Positions 9,861-24,055 are shown, numbered from the stretch's first letter. The stretch is DNA of 64,000 nucleotides from Cloacimonetes bacterium SCGC AAA252-N17 (GCA_000404785.1 ASNI01000006.1:3037-67036); one strand, 5' to 3'. Notes: generated from the letters alone by a model not told the origin. Made by a program: numbers and translations.

Positions 9861-10262
9861 ATGGAATACAAGATTAAAGACGAAAGACAAAAGAGCAAAG
9901 AAAAGAAGATTAATCGTGATCTTTCAGAAAGACTTCTTAATTTCGTTGTAAAGACTATGCAATTTCTACGATCACTTCCACATAACAAAGAGTACGATGT
10001 CTTTAGGTATCAACTATCAAAATCATCTTCGTCCATAGGCGCCAACTACGAGGAATCTCAAGCATGCACTGAAAATGAATTCAAGCAGCGAATAGCCATC
10101 TGTCTTCGTGAAGCTCGTGAAACAAATTATTGGTACAGAGTAATTGATAAACTGGACATTGGTGATAGCGAACAAAGAAAATATTTATTACAAGAATCCT
10201 ATGAATTAAAGTTAATATTTGGATCAATATACTCCAAATGCTACAAGAAGGCAAAAATATGA
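9861..10262 (+). CDS. Four-helix-bundle protein (23S rRNA IVS protein/Avd-like family)
   Basis: QLSKSSSSIGANYEE, F...IAICLREARETNYW. Confidence 0.9.
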   Translation: MEYKIKDERQKSKEKKINRDLSERLLNFVVKTMQFLRSLPHNKEYDVFRYQLSKSSSSIGANYEESQACTENEFKQRIAICLREARETNYWYRVIDKLDIGDSEQRKYLLQESYELKLIFGSIYSKCYKKAKI

Positions 10263-11800
10263 ATAATAAAATTTTAATCTTTATTCTTTGCTCTTTAATC
10301 TTTTTTACTATAACTTTCTGCTCAAACACAGGACCTCAGACAGGAACATTATCCGGCACTATTAATTTAGAAGGTCAATCCGACCACTCCGGAATAATTA
10401 TAGGCATTTACAAACTTGCCGAGTTAGATCCCGACATCGTCGAAGCTAATCAGAAATGGCCCCACATTGGCGTAATAATTAATCAGATGACTGAATTCGA
10501 CCACCGCTTCGGCACATTAATTAAAACCGGAGAAACCGATGCATCCGGTTACTTTGAAATTAAAGACATCCCAACGGGTGTTTATAATGTAGTTGCAATA
10601 AAAGACTCTTTCGGTTTTCGTTATATTTACAATGTACAAATAAATGATGGAAATAATGAGCTTTCAGCAAAGAATAAAGACAAAAGATCAAAGATCAAAA
10701 GTGAAAATTCTACCGATGTCCTTAATCTTTCTTCTTTAGTCTTTGATCTTAATAATCGCACTAGCGATTTAACTCTTTTTCCCGAAACAACAATCTCCTC
10801 CGACATCTCCACCCCAACTACCTTTCTCTCCCACCATCATTACATAATTGAACAAGACATTATAGTTGATGACGAACTCATCATACAACCCGGTGCAGTT
10901 GTACGTTTGAACGAAGGCAAAGAAATAACCAGCTATGGTACCTTTAATGCAGTAGGAGAATATGAAAACTTCATCTGGTTTACCAAGAATGATGGATTTT
11001 CCGAAAACTTGAGTACAATAGAACCTGACTCAAATTATATTTGGGATAGAGTTACCCTAGAGCCATATTCACAAGCGCAGGTCCAATGGAGTAAATTCGA
11101 TTGTGCGAATATTGGATTGTTAAATCATGTGAATGGATTTGGGATTTCGGATTGTATTTTTAGTGCTAGTCAGTGTGGATTTAAAGCTGTGGATGTTGAT
11201 TCGATGTTTTGTAGTAATTTGTTGTGTGAAGCGATTACAAATGAAACTGAAGGTGGGATTTATTTTGTAAATTGTAATTCAGGTAAAATTAATAATAACC
11301 TGTTAGTAAAAAACTCTACAGGTATAAAAGTAAAGGATTTATCTAATCCCTTAATGAAGAATAATTACTTTACTCAAAATGAATTTGGTGCAGAATTATG
11401 GAGTAGTAATTCTTCTTTTATCAATAATGAATTTTCATACAATTCTAACGGTTTAAGGATTTGTGGAACCACTTCTCCCACAATATATCTTAATAACATT
11501 CAATCGGATATCGGAATATATATAGGATTTAACGATACCTATCCAAACGCAAATCCTGAAATTAATTTTAACAATTTAATCAATTGCGGCTATACGATTT
11601 ATGAAACGTTTTTTAATAGTAATGTTATAAATGCAGAGAATAACTATTTTGGCACTACTGATCCACTCATTATTGAAGAATTAATTCATGATAAAAATGA
11701 TCTATCATCAACGGCACCATATTATAACACTTATGGAATAATTAATTATATTCCATTTTTATTATCGGAATATCCAAATGCAGGAATACAGGATGAATAA
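10259..11800 (+). CDS. Secreted or lipoprotein with carboxypeptidase-regulatory-like domain and right-handed parallel beta-helix
   Basis: Signal peptide ending TFC; GTLSGTINLEG..G.YNVVA; repeated N..(I/F)..N..GI turns; C-terminal NAENNYFG. Confidence 0.65.
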   Translation: MNNKILIFILCSLIFFTITFCSNTGPQTGTLSGTINLEGQSDHSGIIIGIYKLAELDPDIVEANQKWPHIGVIINQMTEFDHRFGTLIKTGETDASGYFEIKDIPTGVYNVVAIKDSFGFRYIYNVQINDGNNELSAKNKDKRSKIKSENSTDVLNLSSLVFDLNNRTSDLTLFPETTISSDISTPTTFLSHHHYIIEQDIIVDDELIIQPGAVVRLNEGKEITSYGTFNAVGEYENFIWFTKNDGFSENLSTIEPDSNYIWDRVTLEPYSQAQVQWSKFDCANIGLLNHVNGFGISDCIFSASQCGFKAVDVDSMFCSNLLCEAITNETEGGIYFVNCNSGKINNNLLVKNSTGIKVKDLSNPLMKNNYFTQNEFGAELWSSNSSFINNEFSYNSNGLRICGTTSPTIYLNNIQSDIGIYIGFNDTYPNANPEINFNNLINCGYTIYETFFNSNVINAENNYFGTTDPLIIEELIHDKNDLSSTAPYYNTYGIINYIPFLLSEYPNAGIQDE

Positions 11801-12042
11801 AAGAAGAAAGCATTAATAACAGGACAGGATGGTTCATATCTTGCTGAATTATTATTGGACAAAGGATATGAAGTACATGGGATTATCCGTAGGGCATCAA
11901 CTTTTAATACAGAAAGAATTGATCATTTATTCAATAATCCTGAAATCCATGATAAAAAATTATTTTTACACTATGGCGATCTAACGGATTCCAGTAATTT
12001 AAACCGTATATTGGGAAAAGTTAAACCCAATGAAATATACAA
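11793..12042 (+). pseudogene. gmd: Truncated GDP-mannose 4,6-dehydratase
   Basis: [48 protein letters not shown]; start out of frame; one ITG of ITGITG missing; similarity ends after EIYN. Confidence 0.85.
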
Positions 12043-12222
12043 TATTGGCTTCCAGCTGTTGATGTATATGCTGAGAATAACTATTTTTATGCAAATGATG
12101 AAAATGAAATATCGGTTATTATATATGACAAAAATGATGTTGTAAATAATCAGGAAAATATTGGACTAATATTTTATGATCCATGGGAAGACACTCAAAT
12201 TGATAGCTGTGGAATTTATTAG
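12040..12222 (+). pseudogene. 3-prime fragment of a beta-helix protein paralogous to 10259-11800
   Basis: [31 protein letters not shown] resembles INAENNYFGTTDPLIIEELIHDKNDL..NYIPF. Confidence 0.65.
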
Positions 12223-12243
12223 TCAAAAATGAAATAATTTGAT

Positions 12244-13710
12244 ATGTTGAAAAAAAAAGAATATTCATTAACTTCACAAGCAGTATATGTGTTTTTAGGA
12301 AAGTTTATACAATTTCTTTTTCAAATTATTGTGCCAGTAATATTAGTACGTTTATTCACAACAGAACAATATGGTCTATATCGGCAAGTAATTTTTATGT
12401 GTCTTTTAATTGTTCCGATATTAAGGTTTCATTTCACAAATAGTCTTTTTTATCTTTATCCAAATAAAAATAATCATGAAGAACAGAGTGAATTAATTTC
12501 ACAAACTTTTTTTATTTTAATTTGTGTAGGTATATTTTTCTGCTTAATAGTTTTCATATTCCACAAATCTTTTATTTCATTAATTAATACTGAGAATTTT
12601 AATAAGATGGTTGTTCCTGCCGTATTTCTTATTACTTTATATGTATTTTCTTCAATTGTTGAGAATATATTTATTATTGAAAAAAAATCTAAACTAGTAA
12701 TAAGTTTTTTATCAATTGATACATTTATTAGAACATTATTTTTACTTGCATTTGTATTTTTTTATCGAACTATTTATGCGGCATTAATTGCATTAGTAAT
12801 ACATGGTGTATTGAAGTTTATTTTCCTTGTAATATATCTTCTACATTATTATAAGCTAAATATTTTTAAGATACATTTAGGGGGAGTGAAAGAACAGTTG
12901 AAGTATGTCATTCCAATGGGATTGAGTACTGTGATAGGTACAATCGGAAAAAATGTTGATAAAATTATATTGATTTATTTATTAACATCACAAGATTTTG
13001 CCTTATATTCTGTTGGTAACTTAAGTATTCCTTTTATAGCAATATTGTATTTGTCAGTTGGTAATGTAATACTACCACAAATTAGTAGATTTTCTAAAAA
13101 AAAAGAAAACAATAAAACAATTCAATTATGGAAAAAAATGATAATAAAAAATGCTACTTTTACGATACCGACTTTGATTTTTTTCTTTGTTCAGGCAAAT
13201 CATGTTTTTATTATTCTTTTTACTGAGAAGTATTTAGCAAGTGTTGGTGTTTTTCGGATATATATATTAGTTTTACTGATTCAAATGTTGGGTTATGGAT
13301 ATATACTAAGGGGGTATGGTAAAACGAAAAGTGTTTTTTATGCAAATTTAATAAAAACATTGTTCAGTATTGTATTCGGATTTCTTTTTATCAAGTATTT
13401 TGGAATTATAGGCGCAGCTGTTACATATGTCATTGCTTTTTCAATTAATGGTATATTTCAACTCTTTAGAACAAAATGTATGTTAAATATAAGTTGGTTA
13501 AACCTTTTGCCGTGGATGGATATTTTAAAATTATTTTTGGTTTCTCTACCACCAATTATACTGATAATATTAATTAATCAATGTAATTATTCGGATATTG
13601 TTTTAATTATTATAACTGGTATTGTATATTTTTCTATTGTATTTATGGCATTTGTGAAATTGGGGTACTTAAATATTAGAAATATTAAAGATTTAGCTAA
13701 ACTAAATTAG
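12244..13710 (+). CDS. wzx: Polysaccharide flippase (Wzx/MOP family)
   Basis: Many TM segments; RLFTTEQYGLY, DKIIL..ALYSVG, GIIGAAV. Confidence 0.88.
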   Translation: MLKKKEYSLTSQAVYVFLGKFIQFLFQIIVPVILVRLFTTEQYGLYRQVIFMCLLIVPILRFHFTNSLFYLYPNKNNHEEQSELISQTFFILICVGIFFCLIVFIFHKSFISLINTENFNKMVVPAVFLITLYVFSSIVENIFIIEKKSKLVISFLSIDTFIRTLFLLAFVFFYRTIYAALIALVIHGVLKFIFLVIYLLHYYKLNIFKIHLGGVKEQLKYVIPMGLSTVIGTIGKNVDKIILIYLLTSQDFALYSVGNLSIPFIAILYLSVGNVILPQISRFSKKKENNKTIQLWKKMIIKNATFTIPTLIFFFVQANHVFIILFTEKYLASVGVFRIYILVLLIQMLGYGYILRGYGKTKSVFYANLIKTLFSIVFGFLFIKYFGIIGAAVTYVIAFSINGIFQLFRTKCMLNISWLNLLPWMDILKLFLVSLPPIILIILINQCNYSDIVLIIITGIVYFSIVFMAFVKLGYLNIRNIKDLAKLN

Positions 13711-13718
13711 TTTAATAA

Positions 13719-14747
13719 ATGAAAATATTAATTATTATATCAAACTTACCTCCTTCTGGGGGAGCAGAGAAAGTGGCTTGGGATCTGGCCGTTAATTTAA
13801 AATACAAGCATGAAGTTCATGTTATCACATTTTGCAAAGAAAGTAAAACTGTTTATATTAATGAGGTCGCTGTACATTGTTTAAAACAAAGATCACATGC
13901 CCTTTGGTATTACATGACAATTGGCAGGAAACAAATTTTAGATATTGTAGACCAGATAAAACCGGACGTGATCAATGCACACATGCCTTCCATTATTGCA
14001 TTTGTTCTGAGACATTATCCAGCAAAAAAGGTGTTAACACTTCATAATAGTGAATATAAATTTTATGTGAAGAGTTTGTCTCAAAAACTGGAACATAAAT
14101 TTACCTTGAGAACGATTAATAGATTTGATCATGTAACCACTGTTTCTAGGCACATGCAGGCGTACTTCATTGAATTCTTAAAAAGAAATATCGAATTAAT
14201 CACCAATGGAATTGATTTAAATTTATTTAAACATAATGAAAAATGCCTTAGACAACGAAATACAATTTTGTATGTAGGCAGATTAGTTGAATTTAAAGGT
14301 GTGAAAATTATTTTTGAAATGGCGACTAAACTTCAAAAATTCAATTTTGTTTTAATAGGCCAGGGTCCATTATATAAAAGTATTGATCTTCCAAATGTTT
14401 TTTTTGAAGGTAGAAAACAAGCCCATGAGGTTGCTATATACTATAATGAATCTTTTCTTTCCATATTTCCAAGTATTTACGAGAATTTTCCACTAGTTGG
14501 TCTTGAAGCAATGGCTTGCGGTTCAATAGTATTGGCAAATGACATAAAAGGATTTAGAGAATATATCGAAAATGGAGTTAACGGATTTTTAATTGATATG
14601 AAAAACCAAGATCAAGTTATCAAAAAAATTGAAGAAATTGAAAACTCAGATAATTTAGATTGCATAAAAGAGAATGCATTCGATACTGCAAGAAAATATT
14701 CTTGGGAAAAAATTAAAAACAGTTATGTGGAATTGTATTCATCGTAA
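13719..14747 (+). CDS. Glycosyltransferase family 4
   Basis: GGAEKV, ILYVGRL..KG, PS.YENFPLVGLEAMACG. Confidence 0.9.
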   Translation: MKILIIISNLPPSGGAEKVAWDLAVNLKYKHEVHVITFCKESKTVYINEVAVHCLKQRSHALWYYMTIGRKQILDIVDQIKPDVINAHMPSIIAFVLRHYPAKKVLTLHNSEYKFYVKSLSQKLEHKFTLRTINRFDHVTTVSRHMQAYFIEFLKRNIELITNGIDLNLFKHNEKCLRQRNTILYVGRLVEFKGVKIIFEMATKLQKFNFVLIGQGPLYKSIDLPNVFFEGRKQAHEVAIYYNESFLSIFPSIYENFPLVGLEAMACGSIVLANDIKGFREYIENGVNGFLIDMKNQDQVIKKIEEIENSDNLDCIKENAFDTARKYSWEKIKNSYVELYSS

Positions 14748-14779
14748 GTAAAATATAAATATTGGGGCGATAGAATAAA

Positions 14780-15703
14780 ATGTTAGAAGAAACTATTTCG
14801 ATTAATCAATTGAGAAAAAAATCAGTAGTCATGCTTTTTGATATAAAAAATTCTCTGGATAAATGGAATGTAACTTATTGGTTAGATTTTGGATCGTTGT
14901 TAGGAGCCTTTAGAAGTGGTAAATCTATGCCGTGGGACGGTGATTTTGACCTTAGTACATTGGACTTGGACATAAATAAGAAAGAAGGACTTTGGCAGGA
15001 ATTAAAGAAAAAAGGTTATCTGCTAGATTTTTCTCATAGCAATATCAAAATAATAAAAAATGATTGGAGAATTGGACAATATCGACTTGATCTTCATAGA
15101 TATCATACTAATGAAAAAGATGATGCTGAATATGAATATGGTCGTAAGTATGTAAGAAAAATCGATTTCTTTTTGAATAATTTTATCCAGGTTTTAGATT
15201 TCCTCATGGTCCCTAATATTAAATCAAAGATAAAATATCCTACTTTTGGTATTCTATGCAGGCTCTTGCTGCAGAATGGAGTTGACCCAAATGAACTTGA
15301 AACTTTAGAACCTTTTAAGGTTATAAAAGGAAAATTTAATAGTCATTATGATTTAGTCATCCAAACTTCTCAAGTAGAAATTTTTAGTTCACCTCTACAG
15401 AGATTAACTAAATCCAGCAAACTATTTTATCATATTATTAAGATTTCACCTAATTTTTTAATAACAGGATTGTTCTCATTGCTAAATAATCATCTTCTCA
15501 GGTCTCCGAAAATTCCATCACGTAGAGTGTTCTTTCCTAAACGTTTTTATAATGCATTTACACCTATAGATTTTTTTGGTATGAAATTTAATGCTCCAAG
15601 TCCTACAGAAGAATATCTTGAAAGAATTTATGGAAATAATTGGAAAACTCCATTAGTTACTAAAAATAAAAAATATTTAAATAGGATAACTTATAAAAAA
15701 TGA
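14780..15703 (+). CDS. LicD-family phosphotransferase
   Basis: YWLDFGSLLGAFR..PWDGDFD; C-terminal F.GMKFNAP..YLERIYG.NW. Confidence 0.88.
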   Translation: MLEETISINQLRKKSVVMLFDIKNSLDKWNVTYWLDFGSLLGAFRSGKSMPWDGDFDLSTLDLDINKKEGLWQELKKKGYLLDFSHSNIKIIKNDWRIGQYRLDLHRYHTNEKDDAEYEYGRKYVRKIDFFLNNFIQVLDFLMVPNIKSKIKYPTFGILCRLLLQNGVDPNELETLEPFKVIKGKFNSHYDLVIQTSQVEIFSSPLQRLTKSSKLFYHIIKISPNFLITGLFSLLNNHLLRSPKIPSRRVFFPKRFYNAFTPIDFFGMKFNAPSPTEEYLERIYGNNWKTPLVTKNKKYLNRITYKK

Positions 15704-16911
15704 ATACCACACCTTCAAATTACCAGGGAAAACTCGCAATTGTATGTATTCATGGCCTTGGAGAAAACGGCTTAAATACTGTCAGATCATTAGGAAGAGC
15801 AGGAATCCCCGTTGTGGTTATAGGTATACAAGGAGAACTTAATCTTGCAAAATATAGCAAATACTGTTCACGATTTGAAGAAATAAATTCATTTGATAAG
15901 AAACAATTGCTTGATAAATTATTTCAACTTCGGGATGAATTGACATATAATCCAATTCTTTTTTTTGATAATGATTATATGCTGGCTCTATTAAATGATT
16001 CAGAAGAAGTATTGAAATCTAAATTCAAGCTTACACAAGGAATCAAAGATTTTTCATTTAAAGATTATCAAATGAAAATGGCTGATGAAGCTGACGTAAA
16101 TGTGCCAAAAACCTGGAAACCGAAGAGTTGGAATGGCTTAATGGAAATGAAAATTCCCCTCAATATTAAGCTTATTGCCAAACCTTCACAAGACGAAGGC
16201 AAAAAACCTTTTAAAACAATAGTTGCTAGTAATTTAGAAAAACTAATTGATTTAATTAAAAAGAAAACAGAATCAATAGATAAAATTATTATTCAAGAAT
16301 ATATTGAAGGTAAACAAGACAGCATATGGGCTGTATTAGGTTACTATTCATCTGATATGCAATTTTCCCCAATTTTAACAGCTGTAAAATATTCAATGTG
16401 CCCTCCACAAGGTGGAGTTATGGCTATTGGCAAAGTATTAGAGAATAACACTTTGACTGAAATTTCCAAGCGATATATAAGAAAATCTAATTATTTTGGT
16501 ATTTTTGGTTTAGAATTTAAATACTCAATTTCTGATGGTAGTTATTATTTCATTGAAATGAGTCCTCGAACTGAAGGTTTTCACAATATTACAAAACTTA
16601 TTGGTATTGATTTGCCGCTATGTGCTTATTGGGACTTAGTATTAAAAAAGAAACCATTTTACCAAAAGAGCAACAAATTGGGCATTTATTCTGGTTACTG
16701 GATAAATATTAGATATTTTGTGGAATCATTAGTGATTCAAAAGAGTGTTTCTGATCTTAGCAAACTTTTTATTGCATTAGCATCAAAAAGCCAGTTTCAA
16801 CACTTTGATATAAAGGATCTTAAACCATTCTTTGTGGCATCACGATGGTATATCAATACTGCTTGGAAACATCGAATTAAAAAACTAATTATAGGTAAGA
16901 TGAATGGCTAA
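15700..16911 (+). CDS. ATP-grasp carboxylate-amine ligase (D-aspartate ligase-like)
   Basis: L.TVRSLGRAGI; K..Q...A....VPKTW; IAKP; IIQEYIEG; GLEFK..YFIEMSPR; LPL.AY. Confidence 0.75.
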   Translation: MNTTPSNYQGKLAIVCIHGLGENGLNTVRSLGRAGIPVVVIGIQGELNLAKYSKYCSRFEEINSFDKKQLLDKLFQLRDELTYNPILFFDNDYMLALLNDSEEVLKSKFKLTQGIKDFSFKDYQMKMADEADVNVPKTWKPKSWNGLMEMKIPLNIKLIAKPSQDEGKKPFKTIVASNLEKLIDLIKKKTESIDKIIIQEYIEGKQDSIWAVLGYYSSDMQFSPILTAVKYSMCPPQGGVMAIGKVLENNTLTEISKRYIRKSNYFGIFGLEFKYSISDGSYYFIEMSPRTEGFHNITKLIGIDLPLCAYWDLVLKKKPFYQKSNKLGIYSGYWINIRYFVESLVIQKSVSDLSKLFIALASKSQFQHFDIKDLKPFFVASRWYINTAWKHRIKKLIIGKMNG

Positions 16912-18829
16912 AGGTATAAACATTTTATTAGGTGGAATAGGAGATGATGCCCATTCAGTAGGAATTACACTTTTATCTTTAGGATTATCTGAAGCAGGAT
17001 TTGAAGTAGACAATATAGGTATTCAAAATCCGATTAATGATTTTTTCAAATCAGAACAAGACGTCCAGATAATAATGATATCCAGCAAAAACGGACATAG
17101 TGAATTGTATTTAAATAATTATGGAAAAGAAATATATGAACACACACAAAGCAATAAAAAACAAATATGGTATATAGGTGGTCATTTATCAATATGTGAA
17201 AAAGATGATGTTATAATTAACAAATATAAGAGAATGGGTTTTACTAGAGTTTTTCCAAATTTCATTACAATGGAAAATATCATAGAATACCTGAAAAAAG
17301 ATATATATTTAAAAAAAATAACTCCTGGTATAGTTAGAACTTCACAAGCTGAAGTGATTGAAGATGAAGGATTAGAAAGGGTCTCAGATTCAAAATGGCC
17401 AATTGAAAAATTAATTAAAATTAGACCGAATGTTTTAAGAACTTGGAAAACAGGATTAGATATCGACTGGGGTATTATAAAAAAAGTTCACTCATTTCCA
17501 AATAAAAATCTCAATTTTGTTCAGAACAATAGAGGTAAAACACCTTTACTTCAACCAAGAACAGGAGTGGCCAGCATCTCAAAACAAATAAGAAAATTAA
17601 TTGATTTGCAATCTTTAGGAATTGATGTTGCCTCAGTGCAACTTGATGCATCGACAAGAATTAAGAATTATAAGAAGGCTGAGGAAGGTGTACAGATAAG
17701 CGAATATAGGAAAAAATCATTTTTAAATGGTTTTCCAGTTCCAATATATGGTCAGGAAGGTGTAAAAAAAATTGTTGATTAATTAAAAATCCCATTTCAA
17801 ATCAGGGGTGGAGCACCTGATCATAGGTTAACCTATGAAATTGCATTAGCTGGAGGTGCATCAGCTGTTGAAGGGGGCTTTTTATGTTATCTTTTTCCTT
17901 ATGATAAAGATACACCACCTAGTGAAAGCTTGAAGAACTGGCAATATATTGATAGGTTAGCTGGATTTTATTATGAAGAACATCGCATAGTTATAAATAG
18001 AGAGTGGTTTGGCGTTCTTACTGCAAACTTAATTCCACCTTCTTTAGCAATAGTTATAAATATAATTCAGACAATTTTAAGTGCAAAACAAGGTGTAAAA
18101 AGCATATCTGTAGGTTATGCTGAACAGGGAAACAGATCACAGGACATTGCTGCAATGCAGGCTTTAAGGGAACTGAATCTAAAATACTTAAATGATTTTG
18201 GCTTTTATGATGTAAGTCTAACAACAGTTTTCCATCAATATATGGCTGCTTTTCCAAGTGATATTGAAAAAGCAGAAATGTTAATTTTCGAGTCAGCAAT
18301 TACAGCGCAATTAGCCAAATCAGATAGAATGATGATGAAATCACCTGTTGAAGCAATCAAGATTCCATCGACAAAAGAAAATGAATTGGGTGTGAAGATT
18401 TGCAGGAATGGGTTTCTACACGCCAATGATATCCACTATTATGATGCAAAAGTAAACTTTGAAAAAAAGTATATATTTAAAGAAGTTGATGCAATAATTC
18501 AAAAGGTGATACAACTTGGGAAAGGTGATATAGCAAAAGGAGCAATAAAAGCATTCTCAAAAGGTGTCCTGGATATCCCATTTTCACCCAGTAGGTATAA
18601 CAAGGGAGAAGTGATTTGCATTAGAGATGTTTCGGGTGCTATAAGATATGCTAAATTTGGGAATATGCCCTTTAGTGATGAGATTAAAGAATTTCATTTT
18701 GAGAAAATTGAAGAAAGAAAAACCAAACAACGAAAAAATAGCTTATTTCAAATGGTTGAAGATGATCTACAAAGAATTGCTCTGAATGATTTCAGTACGT
18801 GGCCATTAGACGATAATTATATTATTTAA
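16904..18829 (+). pseudogene. Fused B12-dependent glutamate (methylaspartate) mutase S+E subunits with one in-frame TAA at 17780-17782
   Basis: DAHSVG (DxHxxG) B12 domain; LQPRTGV, LDASTR, LNGFP, EGG..Y..PY, WQYIDRL, REWFG.LT..LIPPS match GlmE; the reading frame continues past the TAA. Confidence 0.88.
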
Positions 18830-19495
18830 ATGTTTTTAAAAATAAATAATCTTATTCTTAAGATATTTAGAAAATTAATTAGCTACTTAAAAATCAGAAT
18901 TCATTATGGTTTAGTTTTTTGTTATGATATTAATATAATTAAGAAGATTACAAATTCGAAGAGCAATGCAGAATTAATAAAGTCACCAATCAAAATTGTT
19001 CAATGTAATAACTCAATTGATATTTATAATTATTATAATAAAAATGGTAAATATATTCCTGAAGAAGTAATTGCTGATTGGCTGTTAAATGATTATAGGT
19101 GCTGGCTAGCATATAGCTCAAATGAAATAGCTGGGATTTCTTGGACATGGACAGGAAAAGTACATTTACAGGGTTTAAGTGGTAGAGCTTTTTCGAAAAA
19201 GAAGACAATCGAATTTGAAGAAGACACATTCTATATTTGTCATGTACATGTCGACCGAAAATACAGAGGACAGAATATAATGGCAAAACTTGAAATTGAA
19301 CAGCTTAAATTTCATCTTATTGAGAATAATTATAGCAAAGGGGTCATTACAATGGGTATAGATAATATACCCAGTGTTAAAACTCAAACAAAATTAGGTG
19401 GTAAGTTAATTGTTGTATCTTTTATGTTGTTTTTATTGAATATTCAGTTTCGAAAGTATTTGTACTTTGATAGAAAAGAAAAATGTTGGAATTAA
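18830..19495 (+). CDS. GNAT-family acyltransferase
   Basis: YICHVHVDRKYRGQNIM acetyl-CoA motif; DNIPS...KLGG. Confidence 0.75.
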   Translation: MFLKINNLILKIFRKLISYLKIRIHYGLVFCYDINIIKKITNSKSNAELIKSPIKIVQCNNSIDIYNYYNKNGKYIPEEVIADWLLNDYRCWLAYSSNEIAGISWTWTGKVHLQGLSGRAFSKKKTIEFEEDTFYICHVHVDRKYRGQNIMAKLEIEQLKFHLIENNYSKGVITMGIDNIPSVKTQTKLGGKLIVVSFMLFLLNIQFRKYLYFDRKEKCWN

Positions 19496-19728
19496 CTGAC
19501 TTGAACTAATCTCATATTAAGTTTATTAAATGATTTATAGTAACATTTTATTTGTCTGTAAATTAATTAAAAACTGTTTCTGATCGAGTTTGATCGCAAT
19601 CAATTGATAAATTAATGTTGGCTTTTAGCAGGTTAGGTAAAAAAAAGTTCTATGAAATTTGTTTGATATTATCATTGTGTTTCAATAAACAATTGAATAT
19701 CATTAACTTTTAACTTGATGGAGAAAAG

Positions 19729-20487
19729 ATGATTGAGATTAAGAATACTGTGTTAATTATTGCGGCTGGTATGGGAAGTAGGTTGAGACCTTATACATCA
19801 CAAACTCCTAAATCAATAATAGATATTAATGGAATGACAATGTTAGGTCAATCCTTATTCAACCTTAATGAAATAAATAATTCTGATAATATCATTATTG
19901 ATAAAGTGCTTATTTGTATTGGATATTTAAAAGAAAAGATCAAGCAATATGTGAATTCACTTGAGTTAAAGAATATCAACGTTGAATTCATAGAAAACCC
20001 GTTATATGCAACTCTAAATAATAACTTTAGTGTATGGTTAGCACATTCTCATATTACAGACCAGCAATTGGTGTTAATTAATGGTGATATTTTTTATGAT
20101 AAACAGATACTAATAAGTACTTTTCTTTCAAGATATGAGAACCTGTCTGTTATAGACTCCACAAAACCTTTACCAGAGGATGGAATGAAGGTTTTGGTTA
20201 ATGATGAAAATAGAATTATTGCTTTTAGCAAAACATATTACAATGGATTTGGATGTACAGTAGGCATTCATAAATTCTCAACTGAAGGGACCTCATTATT
20301 TTTGAAAAAGATATATGATCATTTGGAAAATGGTATAAACACTTTTCATCATAAAGCGATTGATGACTTGATTAAATCAAATGAGTTAGATCATTATGCC
20401 TTGGATGTAAATGGCTTTGAATGGATTGAAATTGATGATGTTACAGATTTGCAATCAGCTAAGGAGAATTATTTTGAAGAATTATGA
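19729..20487 (+). CDS. Phosphocholine-cytidylyltransferase-like NTP transferase (LicC-like)
   Basis: IIAAGMGSRLRP..PK; ENP.Y..NN..S; LINGDI; W.EIDD..DL. Confidence 0.85.
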   Translation: MIEIKNTVLIIAAGMGSRLRPYTSQTPKSIIDINGMTMLGQSLFNLNEINNSDNIIIDKVLICIGYLKEKIKQYVNSLELKNINVEFIENPLYATLNNNFSVWLAHSHITDQQLVLINGDIFYDKQILISTFLSRYENLSVIDSTKPLPEDGMKVLVNDENRIIAFSKTYYNGFGCTVGIHKFSTEGTSLFLKKIYDHLENGINTFHHKAIDDLIKSNELDHYALDVNGFEWIEIDDVTDLQSAKENYFEEL

Positions 20488-21688
20488 GATAATTCTAAAT
20501 ACCATAAAAAAACGACGAAGCGTGAGATCATTTATCAGAGACTTTGAAATCGGGGATGATGTCTTGATGAAAATTCTTGAGGCTGCAAAGCATATACCTT
20601 CAGCAAGGAATATTCAGCCTTTAGAATTTATTATAGTTAGAGATAAAAATATTCTAGAATCACTAAATACCGCTTGCCAGCAAAATCAAACTTCACAAGT
20701 AGATGTGGCAATTGTTATAGTGGGTGATTTGATTTTAGCCAGGAAAGTTGGCTCAATAAGTTCACATTCATACACAACTGCTGATAAAGGAAGTAATATT
20801 TTTATTTTTATGGATGCAGCAGCCTCAGCGCAGAATATTCTATTGGCAGCCTGCTCGCTGGGTATAGACACACTTTGGATAAGTAGTTTTGATGAAAAAG
20901 AAATTTCAAGAGTATTGAATATTCCAGAAACATATATTCCCTTGGTAATTATCCCATTAGGCAAAAGAAAGAATGAACCTTTTACCCCGCAGAAGAGACC
21001 GTTGATTGAAAGAATTCATCATGATACATTCCAAGTAATTAATCACGATTTCAGTTATCTTGAAATGTCGAAAAAGATAAATGAGGATAATGGTGAACTA
21101 CAAAATTACACTCATGTAAATCTTCAGACTGCACGTAAGGAATTAACTAAACTTTTAGCTGCTAATTGTAACACTAAACAATCGGAGGAATTCTTACATT
21201 ATGCCAACTCAATAGCAAAGAAATGTAAACTGATTAGCGAACAAATTAACAAAAGAAATAGCTTGCCTGTTAGTCCCAGCAAGCTAGAAGCTATAGGATT
21301 GTTATGTAGAATTGGGCTTATTCTTTCAGATAATATTGAATATGAAGAACTATATTGCTTTGACTACTTGAATAAAAATGGATTTAGCACAATTTCAAAC
21401 ATAATAGTTAGTCCAGTTATTGGATTAGAAAAAATCAGTTTTTATGTTTCGAAAACAAGTATAGAAATTGGTAATATTAGAAATTATGCTATAGATAGTG
21501 TTGAAAAAAAAATATTAACTTTTGTGTTACTTTCCACTAATTCAGATGGTGGTGATATTTATTTTGGAGACAAGATAAATGAGCTTGAAAGTAATTGCTC
21601 AAATATTGTTATTAAAAGCATGTACAATAAAAAACGGAACGAATTAACTGAAATCTGTTTAGAGATTGAAACTCTAGTTAATAAATAA
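20474..21688 (+). CDS. Nitroreductase-family protein fused to a degenerate HD-like domain
   Basis: IKKRRSVRSF, PSARNIQP, DAAASAQNILLAA..LG; TTG start after AAGGAG; C-terminal LEAIGLLCRIG resembles HD-domain A.LLHDIG. Confidence 0.75.
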   Translation: MKNYEIILNTIKKRRSVRSFIRDFEIGDDVLMKILEAAKHIPSARNIQPLEFIIVRDKNILESLNTACQQNQTSQVDVAIVIVGDLILARKVGSISSHSYTTADKGSNIFIFMDAAASAQNILLAACSLGIDTLWISSFDEKEISRVLNIPETYIPLVIIPLGKRKNEPFTPQKRPLIERIHHDTFQVINHDFSYLEMSKKINEDNGELQNYTHVNLQTARKELTKLLAANCNTKQSEEFLHYANSIAKKCKLISEQINKRNSLPVSPSKLEAIGLLCRIGLILSDNIEYEELYCFDYLNKNGFSTISNIIVSPVIGLEKISFYVSKTSIEIGNIRNYAIDSVEKKILTFVLLSTNSDGGDIYFGDKINELESNCSNIVIKSMYNKKRNELTEICLEIETLVNK

Positions 21689-21719
21689 GATGAAGCTGTA
21701 TTAAAAGGATAAACTTAAT

Positions 21720-22673
21720 TTGCAATACTTCACTTTGACTGTAGATACTGAAGCTGATAATGCATGGACTTCACCCGAGAAAATTGAGATGAAAAATTTC
21801 AAAGAGTTAATTCGTTTCCAAGAATTATGTGAGAAGTACAATATTATTCCGACATATTTACTAACATATGAATATGCTACATATAAACCTGCAATTGATT
21901 ATCTAAAACCGAAAGCTTATCAGAGAAAATGTGAAATTGGTCATCACCTACATGTTTGGACTACACCTCCCCTCCAGAAGGAACAGAAAGGTATTGATAT
22001 TGAATGGTTACATGCATATCAGTATGAATTACCAGACAATCTGTTTTACGATAAAGCAAATATGCTTTATAATACAATAGAAAAAAATTTTGGTTTAAAA
22101 CCAAAATCTCATAGAGCTGGTAGATGGGGAATTGATAATCGTACAATTGATTGGTTGGTCAACAAAAATTTTCTCGTAGATACTTCAGTTGTTCCAGGGA
22201 AAGATTATACTGATAGTAAGGGTGTTTTTAGTAGTGGACCAAATTTTCAAAATCAATCTAGTAATTTTTTTTTTTGGAAAACTAATAAAAGCAAAATACT
22301 TGAAGTTCCTGTATCAGTCTATAATAATTTTTTTATTTTTAATAAAGCCTTTATTAAAAATATTTATAAATTTATTCCCAATAATAAAAAAGGGAGTAAA
22401 CTATCCAACATTTCAATATTACGCTTAGATCCAGCTTATTCTTATTCTTTTTATAAAAATGCGATATCAGGAAAATTACAAAAACAATACATCGTAAATA
22501 TGATGCTTCATTCTTCAGAGCTTGCTCTTAATTGTAGTCCCAAATCAAAAATAATGAAATATTATAAAAAAAACTGGCTTGTAATTGAACACGTTTTTAG
22601 AATTGTGAGAAAACTTAAATTAATTTCATGTTCTTTATCTGAAATTTCATTATTATATAAGAAATATGAATAA
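21720..22673 (+). CDS. Polysaccharide deacetylase-like protein (WalW-like)
   Basis: FTLTVDTEAD, EIGHHLH.W, SHRAGRWG, VDTSV.P, LEVPVS, MLHSSEL. Confidence 0.8.
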   Translation: MQYFTLTVDTEADNAWTSPEKIEMKNFKELIRFQELCEKYNIIPTYLLTYEYATYKPAIDYLKPKAYQRKCEIGHHLHVWTTPPLQKEQKGIDIEWLHAYQYELPDNLFYDKANMLYNTIEKNFGLKPKSHRAGRWGIDNRTIDWLVNKNFLVDTSVVPGKDYTDSKGVFSSGPNFQNQSSNFFFWKTNKSKILEVPVSVYNNFFIFNKAFIKNIYKFIPNNKKGSKLSNISILRLDPAYSYSFYKNAISGKLQKQYIVNMMLHSSELALNCSPKSKIMKYYKKNWLVIEHVFRIVRKLKLISCSLSEISLLYKKYE

Positions 22674-22699
22674 ATTTATTACTTTTAAGGAAATTTATT

Positions 22700-24055
22700 T
22701 TGTCTTCTAATAAGGATTTCTTTTTAGCGTTATTTTTTATTTTAATTCTACTCGCTATAATTATAATATTTGCTCACTATGGAATATTAAATTATTTGTA
22801 TCTATTTTTACTAATTTTTTTTATTTTTTTGCTTATAATAAGACCTGAGTTAATAATTTATAGTTATTTAGTAATATTACCTACTAACGGAATTGTTCCC
22901 GCCAAATACAACTTTGTTTTGTTTTTGGGGCTTGATGATATAATAAGCATTCTGGTATTACTTTATTTAATTTTTTATCGAAATTTAAGAAACCCCAAAA
23001 AGAATGTTCTTCAAAAATATAATATTTCATTGATTATAATTATGATAGTAATATACTTTCTTACTAATATAAAAAATTCATATTTTAATATTTATAATGG
23101 GGATTATTTTACAACAATTAAAATTTTATTATCCCTAATACTAAAATATGTTCCTTTAATATATATTTTGGTTAATCTCAATCGTGAAGATGTTAAACTG
23201 TTAACTTGTGTAAGATATGGTATTTATTGTAGCATGATTTTTCTTGTTATTTGTCAGTTTATAACACCCTATTTAGGAGGATTAGATCTATTTACCATGG
23301 TTGATTCTGAATATGCTGGACTTGCTAAAAACGTTACTAATGTTGAAAGATTTGCTGGATTCTATAATGGAGATTCAAATAGCTTCGGGGCATTTTTAGT
23401 AATGAATATTGGATTCCTATTTCTACAATTAAATACAAAAAATACAAAAAAATATTTAATTTATTTTTTTATAGGTATTGCTGTATTAGGAGTTTTACAA
23501 ACGGCATCTAGATCTGCAGAAATTTCTTTAGTAATTATTACCTTAATGTTTTTATATAATAATAGAAGTAGTAAGAATTTTATTCAACTATTAATTCTTC
23601 TTCTATTAATTATTTTTAGTTTTGCTGGTTTTATTTCAAATCAAATATCAAGATTTCATAATGCATCATTCCAGCTTAATACTAATCTTGAAGGAAATAG
23701 AATAATGATCTGGGCAAATTATTTTAATTTTTTTAATATAAATCCTCAATATTTAATAACTGGTTCCCATGAAGAAATATATTTTTATGCAGCTCATAAT
23801 GTGTACATTCAAACGATATTCAATGTAGGTATTTTTCCTCTTTTATATATGTTATATATACTTTATAGAATAATTATTAATGTAATTAAGGAAAATAGAT
23901 ATTTGTTGTACATCATTATTCCATTTGTGATTATTACAATGTATGTGGGCCAAATGTCAGAATTTGCCTTTTTTGTTCTGTTAATCACAGTATCCATAGT
24001 TGATTTTAGAAGAAAAGTGAATTTGAATGTAAAACAAACAAAGGATGAAAGTTAA
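22700..24055 (+). CDS. wzy: O-antigen polymerase/ligase-family membrane protein (Wzy)
   Basis: Many TM helices; RFAG..GDSNSFG, TASRS, R..IW, AHNVY. Confidence 0.75.

What the first reader, a model, noticed from the sequence alone, without database searches (positions are those of the whole stretch)
14780..19495. B12-dependent glutamate mutase, ATP-grasp ligase and GNAT translationally coupled inside a Wzx/Wzy locus
Seen: licD-like, ATP-grasp, fused mutase S+E and GNAT genes overlap or abut with no spacers. The mutase keeps DxHxxG and the GlmE arginine, glutamate and tyrosine motifs, and no methylaspartate ammonia-lyase or reactivase gene is visible in the window. Known: glutamate mutase makes 3-methylaspartate in glutamate fermentation and supplies it to natural products (friulimicin, vicenistatin); D-aspartate-ligase-type ATP-grasps attach acidic amino acids to amines. 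Inference: a radical-B12 route to decorate a surface glycan with beta-methylaspartate. I know of no described example.
Basis: partly seen in the sequence, partly recalled or inferred. Interest (0 to 1): 0.85.

Follow-up and report, generated by a model that had tools for sequence, protein, structure and literature searches.

The report
B12 glutamate mutase in a glycan-tailoring cassette
A surface-polysaccharide gene cluster of an uncultured Cloacimonadota bacterium holds a conserved gene cassette that probably attaches the unusual amino acid 3-methylaspartate to a sugar, a decoration I found no report of, but in this strain a stop codon has knocked out the B12 enzyme that would make the amino acid.

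Summary
LicD, ATP-grasp, a fused GlmS+GlmE glutamate mutase and a GNAT overlap or abut at 14780-19495, between Wzx and Wzy. The mutase scores above NCBI's equivalog cut-off for MutE and keeps the DxHxxG motif and all eight GlmE residues checked.

Its frame is broken by one in-frame TAA (17780-17782, codon 293), eight residues before the Arg149 equivalent. Seven of eight orthologues have Ser there. Seven contigs from independent assemblies are identical here and six show the same split, so it is not a sequencing error.

The linkage recurs. Nine distinct low-GC loci, all but one (a 6.8-kb contig) with Wzx and/or Wzy in view, keep the order ATP-grasp, mutase, N-acyltransferase (GNAT in five, formyltransferase in four). 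One locus lacks the mutase; another carries an independent nonsense codon.

Two sister fused mutases (50-52% identical) sit in NRPS clusters, a setting where glutamate mutase is known to supply 3-methylaspartate.

Best model, inferred only: de-N-acylate an amino sugar, ligate (N-acyl-)3-methylaspartate to it. The logic resembles mycothiol synthesis. No publication was found. I rate it a new variant of a known kind, interest about 0.6.

The parts
12244..13710 (+). Wzx-type flippase (488 aa)
   Evidence: Pfam Polysacc_synt 71 bits, plus Polysacc_synt_3 and MurJ. 41-48% identical to the Wzx of L084, L091 and L093.
13719..14747 (+). GT4 glycosyltransferase that travels with the cassette
   Evidence: Pfam Glycos_transf_1 and Glyco_transf_4. 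Homologues at 77% (L081), 43% (L084) and 50% (L093). A GT4 lies directly upstream of the ATP-grasp in T-01tIRd, sH_EU4W2 and L102.
14780..15703 (+). LicD-family phosphotransferase-like protein (accessory, present in 4 of 9 loci)
   Evidence: Pfam LicD 43.8 bits over residues 30-59 only. NCBIfam GGPL_Ptran_Mf1 58.5 bits, below its cut-off. 41-48% identical homologues in L084, L091 and L093. Overlaps the ATP-grasp start by 4 nt.
15700..16911 (+). ATP-grasp carboxylate-amine ligase of a small subfamily, always next to the mutase or acyltransferase
   Evidence: Pfam ATP-grasp_3 26.1 bits. AF2 model pLDDT 85.9. Foldseek hits PurK, biotin carboxylase, PylC and L-amino-acid ligases at E about 1e-14, TM 0.5-0.6. 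Only 14 close relatives in 5.8 billion proteins, within a broad family of 1930 representatives at E <= 1e-30.
16904..18829 (+). Fused GlmS+GlmE adenosylcobalamin glutamate (methylaspartate) mutase, 641 codons, interrupted by one nonsense codon
   Evidence: TIGR01503 444.9 bits against cut-off 390.1. S domain 88.9 bits, below cut-off 110. E = 1.7e-107 to 1CCW chain B. All eight GlmE residues checked are conserved. Intact orthologues of 640-641 aa at 66-79% identity.
17780..17782 (+). In-frame TAA (codon 293) replacing a conserved Ser; aligns with GlmE Ala141, 8 residues before Arg149
   Evidence: Orthologues have S in 7 of 8 and N in 1 of 8 at this position. Seven retrieved contigs from separate assemblies are 99.99-100% identical to the window here; six show the 292 + 299 aa split and the seventh ends inside the gene. 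The next in-frame ATG/GTG/TTG is TTG at 17930, past R301, E323, Y329 and Y333.
18830..19495 (+). GNAT N-acetyltransferase (221 aa); this slot holds a formyltransferase in 4 of 9 loci
   Evidence: Pfam Acetyltransf_1 22.5 bits. 52% identical to the L081 gene. A profile of three orthologues hits Naa30 (E = 1.6e-4) and a putative phosphinothricin acetyltransferase 2JLM (E = 0.022).
19729..20487 (+). NTP_transferase (LicC/RmlA-like nucleotidylyltransferase), accessory; co-occurs with LicD in the window and L084
   Evidence: Pfam NTP_transferase 32.4 bits. 61% identical to the L084 gene.
20411..21688 (+). Nitroreductase-domain protein with an uncharacterised C-terminal half of about 200 aa; accessory (public gene calls start at window 20474)
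   Evidence: Pfam Nitroreductase 92 bits on residues 32-185. 54% identical to the L084 gene. Called as 404 aa in public assemblies.
21720..22673 (+). orf317: CE4/NodB-fold de-N-acylase-like protein; fourth core member of the cassette. No N-terminal hydrophobic segment by eye (no predictor run), so probably cytoplasmic.
   Evidence: No Pfam or NCBIfam hit. 51-61% identical orthologues directly after the acyltransferase in L081, L084, L091 and L093. Genes of 322-330 aa without a Pfam hit occupy the same slot in T-01tIRd, zwB4qjAK and L102; homology is supported for the first two by P0144 and P0140. AF2 pLDDT 92.5. Foldseek top hits are polysaccharide deacetylase 3RXZ (E = 8e-10), H. pylori PgdA 3QBU and ArnD 8T0J.
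22700..24055 (+). Wzy-type polymerase
   Evidence: Pfam Wzy_C 28 bits, below the 31.7 cut-off. 27-41% identical to the Wzy_C-hitting genes of L081, L082, L084 and L093.

Best explanation
The region is part of a conserved glycan-tailoring cassette inside Wzx/Wzy-dependent polysaccharide loci of uncultured low-GC bacteria. The window's organism belongs to Cloacimonadota.

Core of the cassette: (GT4), ATP-grasp ligase, fused GlmS-GlmE mutase, N-acyltransferase, CE4-fold deacylase.

Proposed mechanism:
1. The AdoCbl-dependent mutase isomerises free L-glutamate to (2S,3S)-3-methylaspartate.
2. The probably cytoplasmic CE4-like enzyme removes an N-acyl group from an amino sugar of the nucleotide- or lipid-linked repeat unit, freeing an amine.
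3. The ATP-grasp enzyme activates a carboxylate of methylaspartate as an acyl phosphate and amidates that amine.
4. The GNAT (a formyltransferase in sister loci) caps the amino acid's alpha-amine, either before or after ligation. The product is an N-acetyl- or N-formyl-3-methylaspartyl amino sugar.

The logic parallels mycothiol synthesis: GT4 MshA, deacetylase MshB, ATP-dependent Cys ligase MshC, GNAT MshD.

LicD, the NTP-transferase and the nitroreductase-fusion form a separate, optional phospho-substituent module.

In this strain the mutase is inactivated by a single nonsense codon (a one-base TCA to TAA change would account for it; the ancestral codon is inferred). The strain therefore either decorates with an ordinary acidic amino acid, as the mutase-less locus L093 presumably does, or not at all.

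Shown: gene identities, folds, conserved catalytic residues, the stop codon, and the recurrence and order of the genes. Inferred: every chemical step, the acceptor, and the order of steps.
For: Mutase identity and active site.

Discrete glycan clade of fused mutases. Identity is 63-80% between distinct members of the clade (near 100% for two near-duplicate entries) and 43-53% to all others.

Sister clade. The two sister loci examined lie in NRPS clusters next to an Asp/Glu racemase: L088 Chitinophaga rupis and L089. That is a setting in which glutamate mutase is known to make free methylaspartate as a building block.

Recurrence. Nine loci keep the order ATP-grasp, (mutase), acyltransferase, and eight of them show the CE4-like gene next (the ninth contig record ends first). 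They are the window, L081, L084, L091, T-01tIRd, sH_EU4W2, zwB4qjAK, L102 and L093.

Mutase is optional. L093 matches the window in wzx, GT4, LicD, ATP-grasp, CE4, Wzy and gmd at 41-84% identity but has no mutase. That fits an amino-acid ligation module to which the mutase adds an unusual substrate.

The acyltransferase slot switches between GNAT (5 loci) and formyltransferase (4 loci).

GNAT affinities. The L084 GNAT is most similar to phosphinothricin/arsinothricin N-acetyltransferases, which acetylate the alpha-amine of glutamate analogues (5DWM E = 2e-8; ArsN1). The window-type GNAT profile hits N-alpha-acetyltransferase Naa30.

The CE4 fold of orf317 includes ArnD, a cytoplasmic-face deformylase of a lipid-linked amino sugar. 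A deacylase in every locus whose record reaches that slot argues that an amine must be exposed.

Precedent for the end product's type. N-acetyl-D/L-aspartyl on Qui4N occurs in Providencia O33 and O4 O-antigens (review PMC10609480).
Against: - No enzyme of the cassette has been assayed, and none has a characterised close homologue.
- The ATP-grasp fold matches are generic, so neither the carboxylate nor the amine partner is identified.
- orf317 belongs to a very large family (more than 3900 hits), so it is not specific to this cassette.
- TM-scores to CE4 enzymes are moderate (0.54-0.6), and its metal/catalytic motif was not mapped.
- The GNAT similarities are weak.
- The mutase is broken here and in one other locus and absent from a third. 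The cassette therefore works, or survives, without it.
- No reactivase (GlmL/MutL) gene is linked.
- All related loci come from metagenomes, so no glycan structure exists to compare.
Confidence: 0.55

Rival explanations
1. Same cassette, opposite polarity. The ATP-grasp activates a sugar carboxylate (uronic or nonulosonic acid) and the alpha-amine of 3-methylaspartate attacks it. This gives a uronamide-type decoration, like Glu on GlcA in Klebsiella K82 or the Cj1438C amidoligase of C. jejuni. The GNAT/formyltransferase and the CE4 enzyme then act on an unrelated sugar amine, for example an Arn-like transient N-formyl or N-acetyl protection cycle.
For: Carboxyl-linked amino acids are common in glycans (PMC10609480). 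An ATP-grasp domain forms the GlcA amide in C. jejuni (PMC11800379). Uronic-acid or nonulosonic-acid genes are present: a UDP-Glc dehydrogenase-like gene at 49027 and NeuB at 30780 in the window, and the ManNAc3NAcA pathway in L093. Formyltransferase plus an ArnD-like fold recalls ArnA/ArnD.
Against: Cj1438C belongs to a different (TupA-like) ATP-grasp family. The sugar-acid genes are not the same across the nine loci, whereas the deacylase and acyltransferase are constant and adjacent. The GNATs resemble amino-acid or alpha-amine acetyltransferases rather than sugar N-acetyltransferases.
Confidence: 0.2
2. The cassette makes a small soluble molecule rather than a glycan substituent. An example would be an N-acyl-methylaspartyl dipeptide or amide, with the ATP-grasp acting as an L-amino-acid ligase. 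On this reading the cassette merely lies in polysaccharide loci.
For: Foldseek hits include the L-amino-acid ligases BL00235 and RizA, and PylC. The GNAT resembles enzymes that act on free amino acids.
Against: In the loci where flanks are visible the cassette lies between or beside Wzx and Wzy, often with overlapping start and stop codons (junctions). It is always accompanied by a carbohydrate-esterase-fold protein and usually by a conserved GT4. No exporter or regulator of its own is present.
Confidence: 0.08
3. The mutase clade has changed substrate. It would rearrange a glycan- or nucleotide-bound glutamyl residue, or another 2-substituted acid, after ligation, so free 3-methylaspartate is never made.
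For: The clade is 43-53% identical to other fused mutases, with two clade-specific fixed substitutions, F120 and Q284. The ATP-grasp gene precedes the mutase gene in every locus.
Against: All three carboxylate-binding arginines, the amine-binding Glu171 equivalent and both tyrosines are intact. The protein scores above the equivalog cut-off of TIGR01503. Neither clade-specific substitution is at a known substrate contact.
Confidence: 0.05
4. The stop codon is bypassed by readthrough, a suppressor tRNA or a functional two-piece enzyme, so the window's mutase is active.
For: The rest of the 641-codon frame is undamaged. A second glycan-clade mutase (P0019) also carries a nonsense codon rather than a frameshift.
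Against: TAA is the ordinary stop of the neighbouring ATP-grasp gene and of the mutase itself, so it is not reassigned. The stop is followed by T; UAAU is the most efficient bacterial terminator (my own knowledge). No ATG/GTG/TTG lies in frame before TTG 17930, so a restart product would lack R301, E323, Y329 and Y333. No tRNA gene lies in the window.
Confidence: 0.07

Closest known systems
Glutamate (methylaspartate) mutase GlmS/GlmE of Clostridium cochlearium and C. tetanomorphum (EC 5.4.99.1; PDB 1CCW, 1I9C)
   Same: B12-binding domain with DxHxxG. GlmE TIM barrel with R66, R100, R149, E171, Y177, Y181, K326 and E330 conserved. The match to GlmE has E = 1.7e-107 and the protein scores above the TIGR01503 equivalog cut-off.
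   Different: S and E are fused into one polypeptide of about 640 aa. The context is not fermentation: no methylaspartate ammonia-lyase, mesaconase or GlmL reactivase is linked. Here the gene lies in a Wzx/Wzy glycan locus and carries a nonsense codon.
Glutamate mutases that supply 3-methylaspartate to natural products (friulimicin GlmA/GlmB, vicenistatin VinH/VinI; fused homologues in Chitinophaga NRPS clusters)
   Same: The enzyme serves as a building-block supplier for a secondary product rather than for catabolism. The nearest sister clade (50-52% identical, same S+E fusion) lies in NRPS clusters in the two loci examined.
   Different: The consumer is an ATP-grasp ligase in a polysaccharide locus, not an adenylation domain or NRPS. 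The glycan clade is separate: 63-80% identity between distinct members, 43-53% to the others. The friulimicin and vicenistatin roles are from my own knowledge and were not checked here.
Mycothiol (MshA-D) and bacillithiol biosynthesis
   Same: The same four-step logic and partly the same enzyme classes. A GT4 installs a HexNAc, a deacetylase frees the amine, an ATP-dependent ligase adds an amino acid, and a GNAT acetylates that amino acid's amine.
   Different: This is analogy only. MshB is LmbE-type and not CE4. MshC is related to aminoacyl-tRNA synthetases and is not an ATP-grasp. The product there is a soluble thiol, not a polymer decoration. (My own knowledge of the pathway; not tested here.)
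N-acetyl-aspartyl amino sugars in O-antigens (Providencia stuartii O33, P. alcalifaciens O4; Qui4N acylated through Asp C-4)
   Same: An N-acylated acidic amino acid is amide-linked to a sugar amine. This is the product type predicted here, less the methyl group (PMC10609480).
   Different: The amino acid there is proteinogenic Asp. No mutase is involved. The review read here gives the structures and says nothing about the ligases, so no sequence comparison was possible.
Cj1438 C-terminal amidoligase of the Campylobacter jejuni HS:2 capsule
   Same: An ATP-grasp enzyme encoded in a capsule locus that makes an amide on the glycan (PMC11800379).
   Different: It is a TupA-like ATP-grasp family fused to a GT2. 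It activates the GlcA carboxylate, and the amine is ethanolamine- or serinol-phosphate. The window protein hits ATP-grasp_3 and COG3919-type relatives instead.
ArnA formyltransferase and ArnD deformylase of the lipid A Ara4N pathway
   Same: A formyltransferase is paired with a CE4-fold deacylase in four sister loci. ArnD (8T0J) is among the top structural matches of orf317.
   Different: Sequence identity is only about 10%. In five loci the partner is a GNAT, not a formyltransferase. No ArnC/ArnT-type genes are present.

Membership tests
Glutamate mutase (methylaspartate mutase, EC 5.4.99.1) | E subunit matching the curated equivalog model | tested here: met
   TIGR01503 444.9 bits against cut-off 390.1, with the stop read as X. 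Pfam Met_asp_mut_E 383 bits.
Glutamate mutase (methylaspartate mutase, EC 5.4.99.1) | Base-off/His-on cobalamin-binding S domain with DxHxxG | tested here: met
   D15-A-H17-S-V-G20 and the GG motif align with GlmS. The S-domain scores are below the equivalog cut-offs (88.9 against 110; 69.2 against 135.8).
Glutamate mutase (methylaspartate mutase, EC 5.4.99.1) | Substrate and adenosyl contacts R66, R100, R149, E171, Y177, Y181, K326, E330 | tested here: met
   All eight are conserved as R219, R252, R301, E323, Y329, Y333, K479 and E483.
Glutamate mutase (methylaspartate mutase, EC 5.4.99.1) | Uninterrupted reading frame giving a complete E barrel | tested here: not met
   TAA at codon 293 (17780-17782). 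The same 292 + 299 aa split appears in six of seven retrieved independent contigs; the seventh ends inside the gene. Orthologues P0001-P0007 are intact.
Glutamate mutase (methylaspartate mutase, EC 5.4.99.1) | AdoCbl-dependent Glu to 3-methylaspartate activity | not testable with these tools
   Needs an enzyme assay on an intact orthologue.
Methylaspartate pathway of glutamate fermentation | Linked methylaspartate ammonia-lyase, mesaconase and GlmL reactivase | tested here: not met
   None among the window ORFs submitted to Pfam or NCBIfam, which include every ORF of at least 200 aa, nor in the gene tables of the eight related loci.
NRPS-associated methylaspartate supply | Adjacent NRPS or adenylation genes that consume the amino acid | tested here: not met
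   No Condensation or PP-binding NRPS gene lies next to the glycan-clade mutases. The sister loci examined have them. The AMP-binding gene at 41082 is 22 kb away in a separate acyl module.
ATP-grasp carboxylate-amine ligases | ATP-grasp fold and nucleotide-binding core | tested here: met
   Pfam ATP-grasp_3 above its cut-off. AF2 pLDDT 85.9. Foldseek E about 1e-14 to PurK, biotin carboxylase, PylC and L-amino-acid ligases.
D-aspartate ligase (Aslfm) type | Specific sequence relationship to Aslfm, with beta-carboxyl activation of Asp | tested here: inconclusive
   The only link is that JGI names a 28%-identical relative (P0133) 'D-aspartate ligase'. No NCBIfam model or PDB entry for Aslfm was matched.
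GNAT acetyltransferases | Acetyl-CoA-binding GNAT core | tested here: met
   Acetyltransf_1 22.5 bits against cut-off 20.7, which is marginal. The orthologue profile hits Naa30 at E = 1.6e-4.
LicD phosphotransferases | Nucleotidyltransferase-fold N-terminal motif (DxD) and a CDP-alcohol donor | tested here: inconclusive
   The Pfam LicD match covers only residues 30-59 (43.8 bits). The motif PWDGDFDL is present. The donor is unknown.
CE4 / NodB-fold de-N-acetylases (orf317) | Deformed (beta/alpha) barrel fold of CE4 enzymes | tested here: met
   AF2 pLDDT 92.5, pTM 0.91. 37 PDB hits at E <= 1e-3, most of them CE4 deacetylases and the rest mainly GH57 enzymes. Best hits are 3RXZ (8e-10), 3QBU and 8T0J, with TM 0.54-0.6.
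CE4 / NodB-fold de-N-acetylases (orf317) | Asp-His-His metal triad with catalytic Asp and His motifs | tested here: inconclusive
   Invariant or near-invariant D9, E11, D13, H76, H78, H131, R132 and H264 exist across 58 homologues. They were not superposed on a CE4 active site. No Pfam PF01522 hit.
Wzx/Wzy-dependent polysaccharide locus | Flippase, polymerase, initiating transferase and glycosyltransferases in one cluster | tested here: met
   Wzx 12244; Wzy 22700 (Wzy_C below cut-off); Bac_transf 38633; several GT4s; sugar-nucleotide genes.

The most novel reading that the evidence does not exclude
Intact versions of this cassette install N-acetyl- or N-formyl-3-methylaspartate on a cell-surface polysaccharide. 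I found no report of an adenosylcobalamin radical mutase dedicated to glycan tailoring, nor of this non-proteinogenic substituent on a bacterial glycan. Repeated loss of the mutase (two independent nonsense codons and one absence among nine loci) would then switch the epitope between methylaspartyl and ordinary acidic-amino-acid forms, or reflect B12 limitation.
Probability: 0.45. Interest if true: 0.75.

Novelty: new variant of a known kind. Interest (0 to 1): 0.62.

Why it matters
Amino-acid substituents are immunodominant features of bacterial surface glycans, yet the ligases that attach them are hardly known.

This cassette offers three things:
- A defined, recurrent, four-to-five-gene candidate system for N-aminoacylation of a sugar.
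- A case I found no report of: a coenzyme-B12 carbon-skeleton mutase recruited to glycan decoration. That would extend the known roles of glutamate mutase (fermentation, NRPS/PKS supply) and tie surface-antigen chemistry to cobalamin availability.
- An uncharacterised ATP-grasp subfamily, and a very large CE4-fold family not covered by Pfam, each now with a testable function.

It is testable by heterologous expression of the intact orthologues. The limits are that all carriers are uncultured environmental bacteria and that the copy in this window is dead.

Tried and rejected
- Frameshift as the cause of the split: rejected. Both halves are in the same frame with a single TAA.
- Sequencing or assembly error: rejected. 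Seven retrieved contigs, from two NCBI assemblies and from JGI and Logan runs, are 99.99-100% identical to the window; six carry the same split and the seventh ends inside the gene. Because they are clonal they say nothing about selection, so no dN/dS test was possible.
- Reassigned TAA: rejected. Neighbouring genes end in TAA.
- Cobalamin riboswitch or any RNA element: no Rfam match and no tRNA in the window.
- Sequence-only searches of orf317, the ATP-grasp and the GNAT against PDB, and of orf317 against Pfam and NCBIfam, gave nothing useful. Structure prediction was needed.
- Promoter and terminator scan of 11800-24100: counts are no higher than in shuffles, so it does not define the operon.
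- The 80 genome-contig loci found with the mutase (at most 55% identity) all have a GlmS-like segment just upstream of the GlmE match, consistent with the fusion. None has an ATP-grasp, GNAT or LicD homologue. They do not bear on the glycan cassette.
It was redone with database hits.
- Literature: 'glutamate mutase' with 'O-antigen' gave 0 papers. Methylaspartate with polysaccharide, and the methylaspartic/methylaspartyl terms, gave nothing on glycans. The assembly accessions are not cited in the library.
- Treating LicD as a core member: rejected. It is absent from L081, T-01tIRd, sH_EU4W2, L102 and the visible part of zwB4qjAK.

Full report
**1. What is in the sequence**

On the + strand the window carries one long polysaccharide locus of about 12.2-46.2 kb. 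The finding's interval holds four genes:
- LicD-like, 14780-15703
- ATP-grasp, 15700-16911
- A 641-codon frame for a fused GlmS+GlmE mutase, 16904-18829
- GNAT, 18830-19495

The junctions are ATGA (a 4-nt overlap), an 8-nt overlap, and TAAATG. A Wzx flippase and a GT4 lie upstream. Downstream come an NTP-transferase, a nitroreductase-fusion, orf317 and a Wzy-type polymerase.

Further downstream are a nonulosonic-acid pathway (NeuB, CMP-transferase, LegC-like aminotransferase, PglD-like acetyltransferase), a polysialyltransferase-like gene and the initiating Bac_transf enzyme.

The first 10 kb are toxin-antitoxin genes and a transposase. No ORF submitted to Pfam or NCBIfam, which includes every ORF of at least 200 aa, matches methylaspartate ammonia-lyase or the GlmL/MutL reactivase. 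There is no Rfam hit, so no cobalamin riboswitch, and no tRNA gene.

**2. The mutase**

Read through its stop, the protein scores 444.9 bits on NCBI's MutE equivalog model TIGR01503 (cut-off 390.1). It aligns over residues 161-624 with C. cochlearium GlmE at E = 1.7e-107. The N-terminal 135 residues align with GlmS.

From the alignment, numbered:
- DxHxxG is D15...H17...G20.
- The three carboxylate-binding arginines are R219, R252 and R301 (GlmE R66, R100, R149).
- E323 corresponds to E171, Y329 and Y333 to Y177 and Y181, and K479 and E483 to K326 and E330.

By sequence this is a glutamate mutase for free L-glutamate.

The frame is nevertheless broken. Codon 293 is TAA (17780-17782), in the same frame as both halves, at the position of GlmE Ala141. 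Seven of eight orthologues have Ser there and one has Asn. A one-base TCA to TAA change would account for it, although the ancestral codon is inferred.

The next in-frame start codon is TTG at 17930, beyond R301, E323, Y329 and Y333. Neither fragment could be active. TAA is the normal stop of the neighbouring genes, so it has not been reassigned.

The stop is not an error. The ATP-grasp protein of the window is on 23 public contigs. Seven were retrieved, from two NCBI assemblies (AWNX01000011, ASKN01000016) and from JGI and Logan runs. They are 99.99-100% identical to the window over up to 9.2 kb. Six show the same 292 + 299 aa split and the seventh ends inside the gene. They are clonal, so they say nothing about selection.

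Clusters at 90% identity of two housekeeping proteins place the organism in Cloacimonadota, alongside Ca. Cloacimonas sp. and Ca. Celaenobacter polaris.

**3. Does the linkage recur?**

Yes. Fused S+E mutases of about 645 aa form a large family (735 hits). The window protein belongs to a discrete clade. Identity is 63-80% between distinct members of that clade and 43-53% to all other fused mutases.

The others include named Chitinophaga and Mucilaginibacter proteins. In the two sister loci examined they sit in NRPS clusters next to an Asp/Glu racemase, a setting in which glutamate mutase is known to supply free 3-methylaspartate. None of 80 species-level genome loci at 55% identity or less has an ATP-grasp, GNAT or LicD homologue.

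The ATP-grasp protein has only 14 close relatives among 5.8 billion proteins. It lies inside a broad, uncharacterised ATP-grasp family of 1930 representatives at E <= 1e-30. Every relative whose context could be read sits in the same arrangement:

| Locus | Gene order |
|---|---|
| window | wzx, GT4, LicD, ATP-grasp, mutase*, GNAT, NTP, nitroreductase, orf317, Wzy |
| L081 | wzx, ATP-grasp, mutase, GNAT, orf317, Wzy ... GT4 |
| L084 | wzx, GT4, Hexapep, LicD, ATP-grasp, mutase, GNAT', orf317, NTP, nitroreductase, Wzy |
| L091 (Tara Oceans) | wzx, LicD, ATP-grasp, mutase, formyltransferase, orf317, GT |
| T-01tIRd | GT4, ATP-grasp, mutase, GNAT, 322 aa |
| L102 | GT4, ATP-grasp, mutase, GNAT, 327 aa |
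| zwB4qjAK | ..., mutase, formyltransferase, 330 aa, Wzy |
| sH_EU4W2 | wzx, GT4, ATP-grasp, mutase*, 83 aa, formyltransferase |
| L093 | wzx, GT4, LicD, ATP-grasp, formyltransferase, orf317, Wzy (no mutase) |

An asterisk marks a mutase with a premature stop. All of these loci for which DNA was retrieved are low-GC (26-35%).

In sH_EU4W2 the mutase is split into 418 + 195 aa. Its product P0019 ends at ...DIAAM where the other sequences inspected have Gln, which indicates an independent nonsense codon.

L093 is otherwise collinear with the window, at 41-84% identity for wzx, GT4, LicD, ATP-grasp, orf317, Wzy and gmd.

The conserved core is therefore ATP-grasp, (mutase), N-acyltransferase and orf317, usually with a GT4. 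LicD with the NTP-transferase and nitroreductase is an optional companion.

**4. The partners**

*orf317 (21720-22673).* It has no Pfam or NCBIfam match, but more than 3900 homologues, all unnamed or 'hypothetical'. An AlphaFold model built from 58 sequences has pLDDT 92.5. Its PDB neighbours are mostly CE4/NodB-fold deacetylases, with some GH57 enzymes. The best are M. smegmatis 3RXZ (E = 8e-10), H. pylori PgdA and Salmonella ArnD, with TM 0.54-0.6. By eye its N-terminus has no hydrophobic leader (no predictor was run). A cytoplasmic de-N-acylase, like ArnD, is the natural reading.

*ATP-grasp.* The model (pLDDT 85.9) matches PurK, biotin carboxylase, PylC and L-amino-acid ligases. That confirms a carboxylate-amine ligase fold but not the substrates.

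*GNAT.* The L084 version is most similar to phosphinothricin/arsinothricin N-acetyltransferases, which acetylate the alpha-amine of glutamate analogues (5DWM E = 2e-8). The window-type GNAT profile hits N-alpha-acetyltransferase Naa30 and a putative PAT. These are weak hints that the acetyl group goes onto an amino acid's alpha-amine.

*Formyltransferases.* Those of the sister loci are generic Fmt/ArnA-like.

**5. Mechanism proposed (inferred)**

1. The mutase converts L-Glu to (2S,3S)-3-methylaspartate.
2. The CE4-like enzyme exposes an amine on an amino sugar of the repeat unit.
3. The ATP-grasp forms an acyl phosphate on a carboxylate of the amino acid and amidates the sugar amine.
4. The GNAT or formyltransferase caps the alpha-amine.

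The predicted product is an N-acetyl- or N-formyl-3-methylaspartyl amino sugar. It would be the methyl homologue of the N-acetyl-aspartyl-Qui4N known from Providencia O33 and O4 (PMC10609480). The gene logic (GT4, deacetylase, ATP-dependent amino-acid ligase, GNAT) parallels mycothiol synthesis. That is an analogy from my own knowledge, not homology.

A variant reading has the acyl group transient, as in the Arn pathway, leaving a free amine. That would also explain why GNAT and formyltransferase are interchangeable.

The main rival is reverse polarity, with the amino acid's amine joined to a uronic or nonulosonic carboxylate. The constant presence of a deacylase argues that an amine must be freed, which favours the first polarity.

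In this strain the route is cut at step 1. The intact ligase may use Asp or Glu, as L093 presumably does.

**6. Comparison with the known, and novelty**

Known uses of glutamate mutase are glutamate fermentation and supply of methylaspartate to peptide and polyketide natural products. Neither context applies here (see the membership table).

The review of glycan substituents lists Ala, Asp, Gly, Ser, Thr, allo-Thr, Orn, Lys and Glu, but not methylaspartate. No paper in the library links glutamate mutase with O-antigens or capsules.

The only biochemically defined capsule ATP-grasp amidoligase I found, Cj1438C, belongs to another ATP-grasp family and activates the sugar acid.

I therefore class the cassette as a new variant of a known kind: amino-acid decoration of glycans, with a B12 mutase as a new supplier.

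**7. Verdict**

Recurrence is strong, while the chemistry is untested and the window's mutase is a pseudogene. LicD is accessory, and a CE4-fold deacylase outside the reported interval belongs to the system.

Interest 0.62. It would be higher if an intact cassette is shown to put methylaspartate on a glycan.

Noticed in passing
window 1-10300: Dense run of toxin-antitoxin and defence-type genes: HepT 46-474, AbiEii 739-1446, MNT/HepT pair 3326-4137, Polbeta nucleotidyltransferase 6696-7190, DUF6036 7343-7789, PIN 9190-9564. A DDE transposase lies on the minus strand at 1676-3058. All of this sits directly upstream of the polysaccharide locus.
   Followed up: partly
window 9861-10262, 48539-48910, 50667-51038: The 133-aa ORF at 9861-10262 hits Pfam PF05635 (23S rRNA intervening-sequence protein). 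Two 123-aa ORFs at 48539 and 50667 are 66% identical paralogues, and each follows a roughly 515-aa ORF; they were not scanned against Pfam, so their relation to PF05635 is only suspected. All three are scattered through the glycan locus. Function unknown.
   Followed up: partly
window 19729-21688 (and L084 13476-15420): An NTP-transferase overlaps a nitroreductase-domain protein whose C-terminal half (about 200 aa) has no family. The pair is conserved (61% and 54% identity) in L084, which also has LicD. It may make the unknown CDP/NDP donor for LicD. A nitroreductase fold in such a role would be unusual.
   Followed up: partly
JGI 3300072015 contig of 19171 nt (place sH_EU4W2; protein P0019): A second glycan-clade mutase is split into 418 + 195 aa. 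P0019 ends at ...DIAAM where the other sequences inspected have Gln, which indicates an independent nonsense codon. No DNA was available to check.
   Followed up: partly
L093 8960-11956 (JGI 3300034998): A locus collinear with the window (wzx, GT4, LicD, ATP-grasp, CE4, Wzy and gmd at 41-84% identity) in which the ATP-grasp overlaps a formyltransferase directly, with no mutase. It implies that the ligase family can work with an ordinary amino acid.
   Followed up: yes
window 21720-22673 and its homologues P0135-P0254: orf317 represents a very large family (more than 3900 hits at E <= 1e-3) of roughly 320-380-aa proteins that are unnamed or 'hypothetical' wherever a name is given. The family has no Pfam or NCBIfam model yet gives a confident CE4-like fold. 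It is a candidate new deacetylase family.
   Followed up: partly
window 24045-35643: Nonulosonic-acid block with unusual extras: GDP-mannose-dehydratase-like, LegC-like aminotransferase, CMP-transferase, GFO/IDH oxidoreductase, class-III aminotransferase, carbon-nitrogen hydrolase, SDR, NeuB, PglD-like acetyltransferase and a xylose-isomerase-like TIM barrel. A polysialyltransferase-like gene follows at 34429-35643. This block is 64-92% identical in L081 for four of the five genes found there (CMP-transferase 44%).
   Followed up: no
window 40372-43185: SDR, AMP-binding acyl-activating enzyme and hexapeptide acyltransferase form a second, separate acyl-decoration module near the end of the locus.
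   Followed up: no
window 19496-19728: A 233-nt AT-rich spacer lies between the GNAT and the NTP-transferase. It is the only sizeable gap in the 12.2-24 kb stretch. No terminator-like site was called in it, and the single promoter-like match (19733-19760) starts just downstream, inside the next gene.
   Followed up: partly
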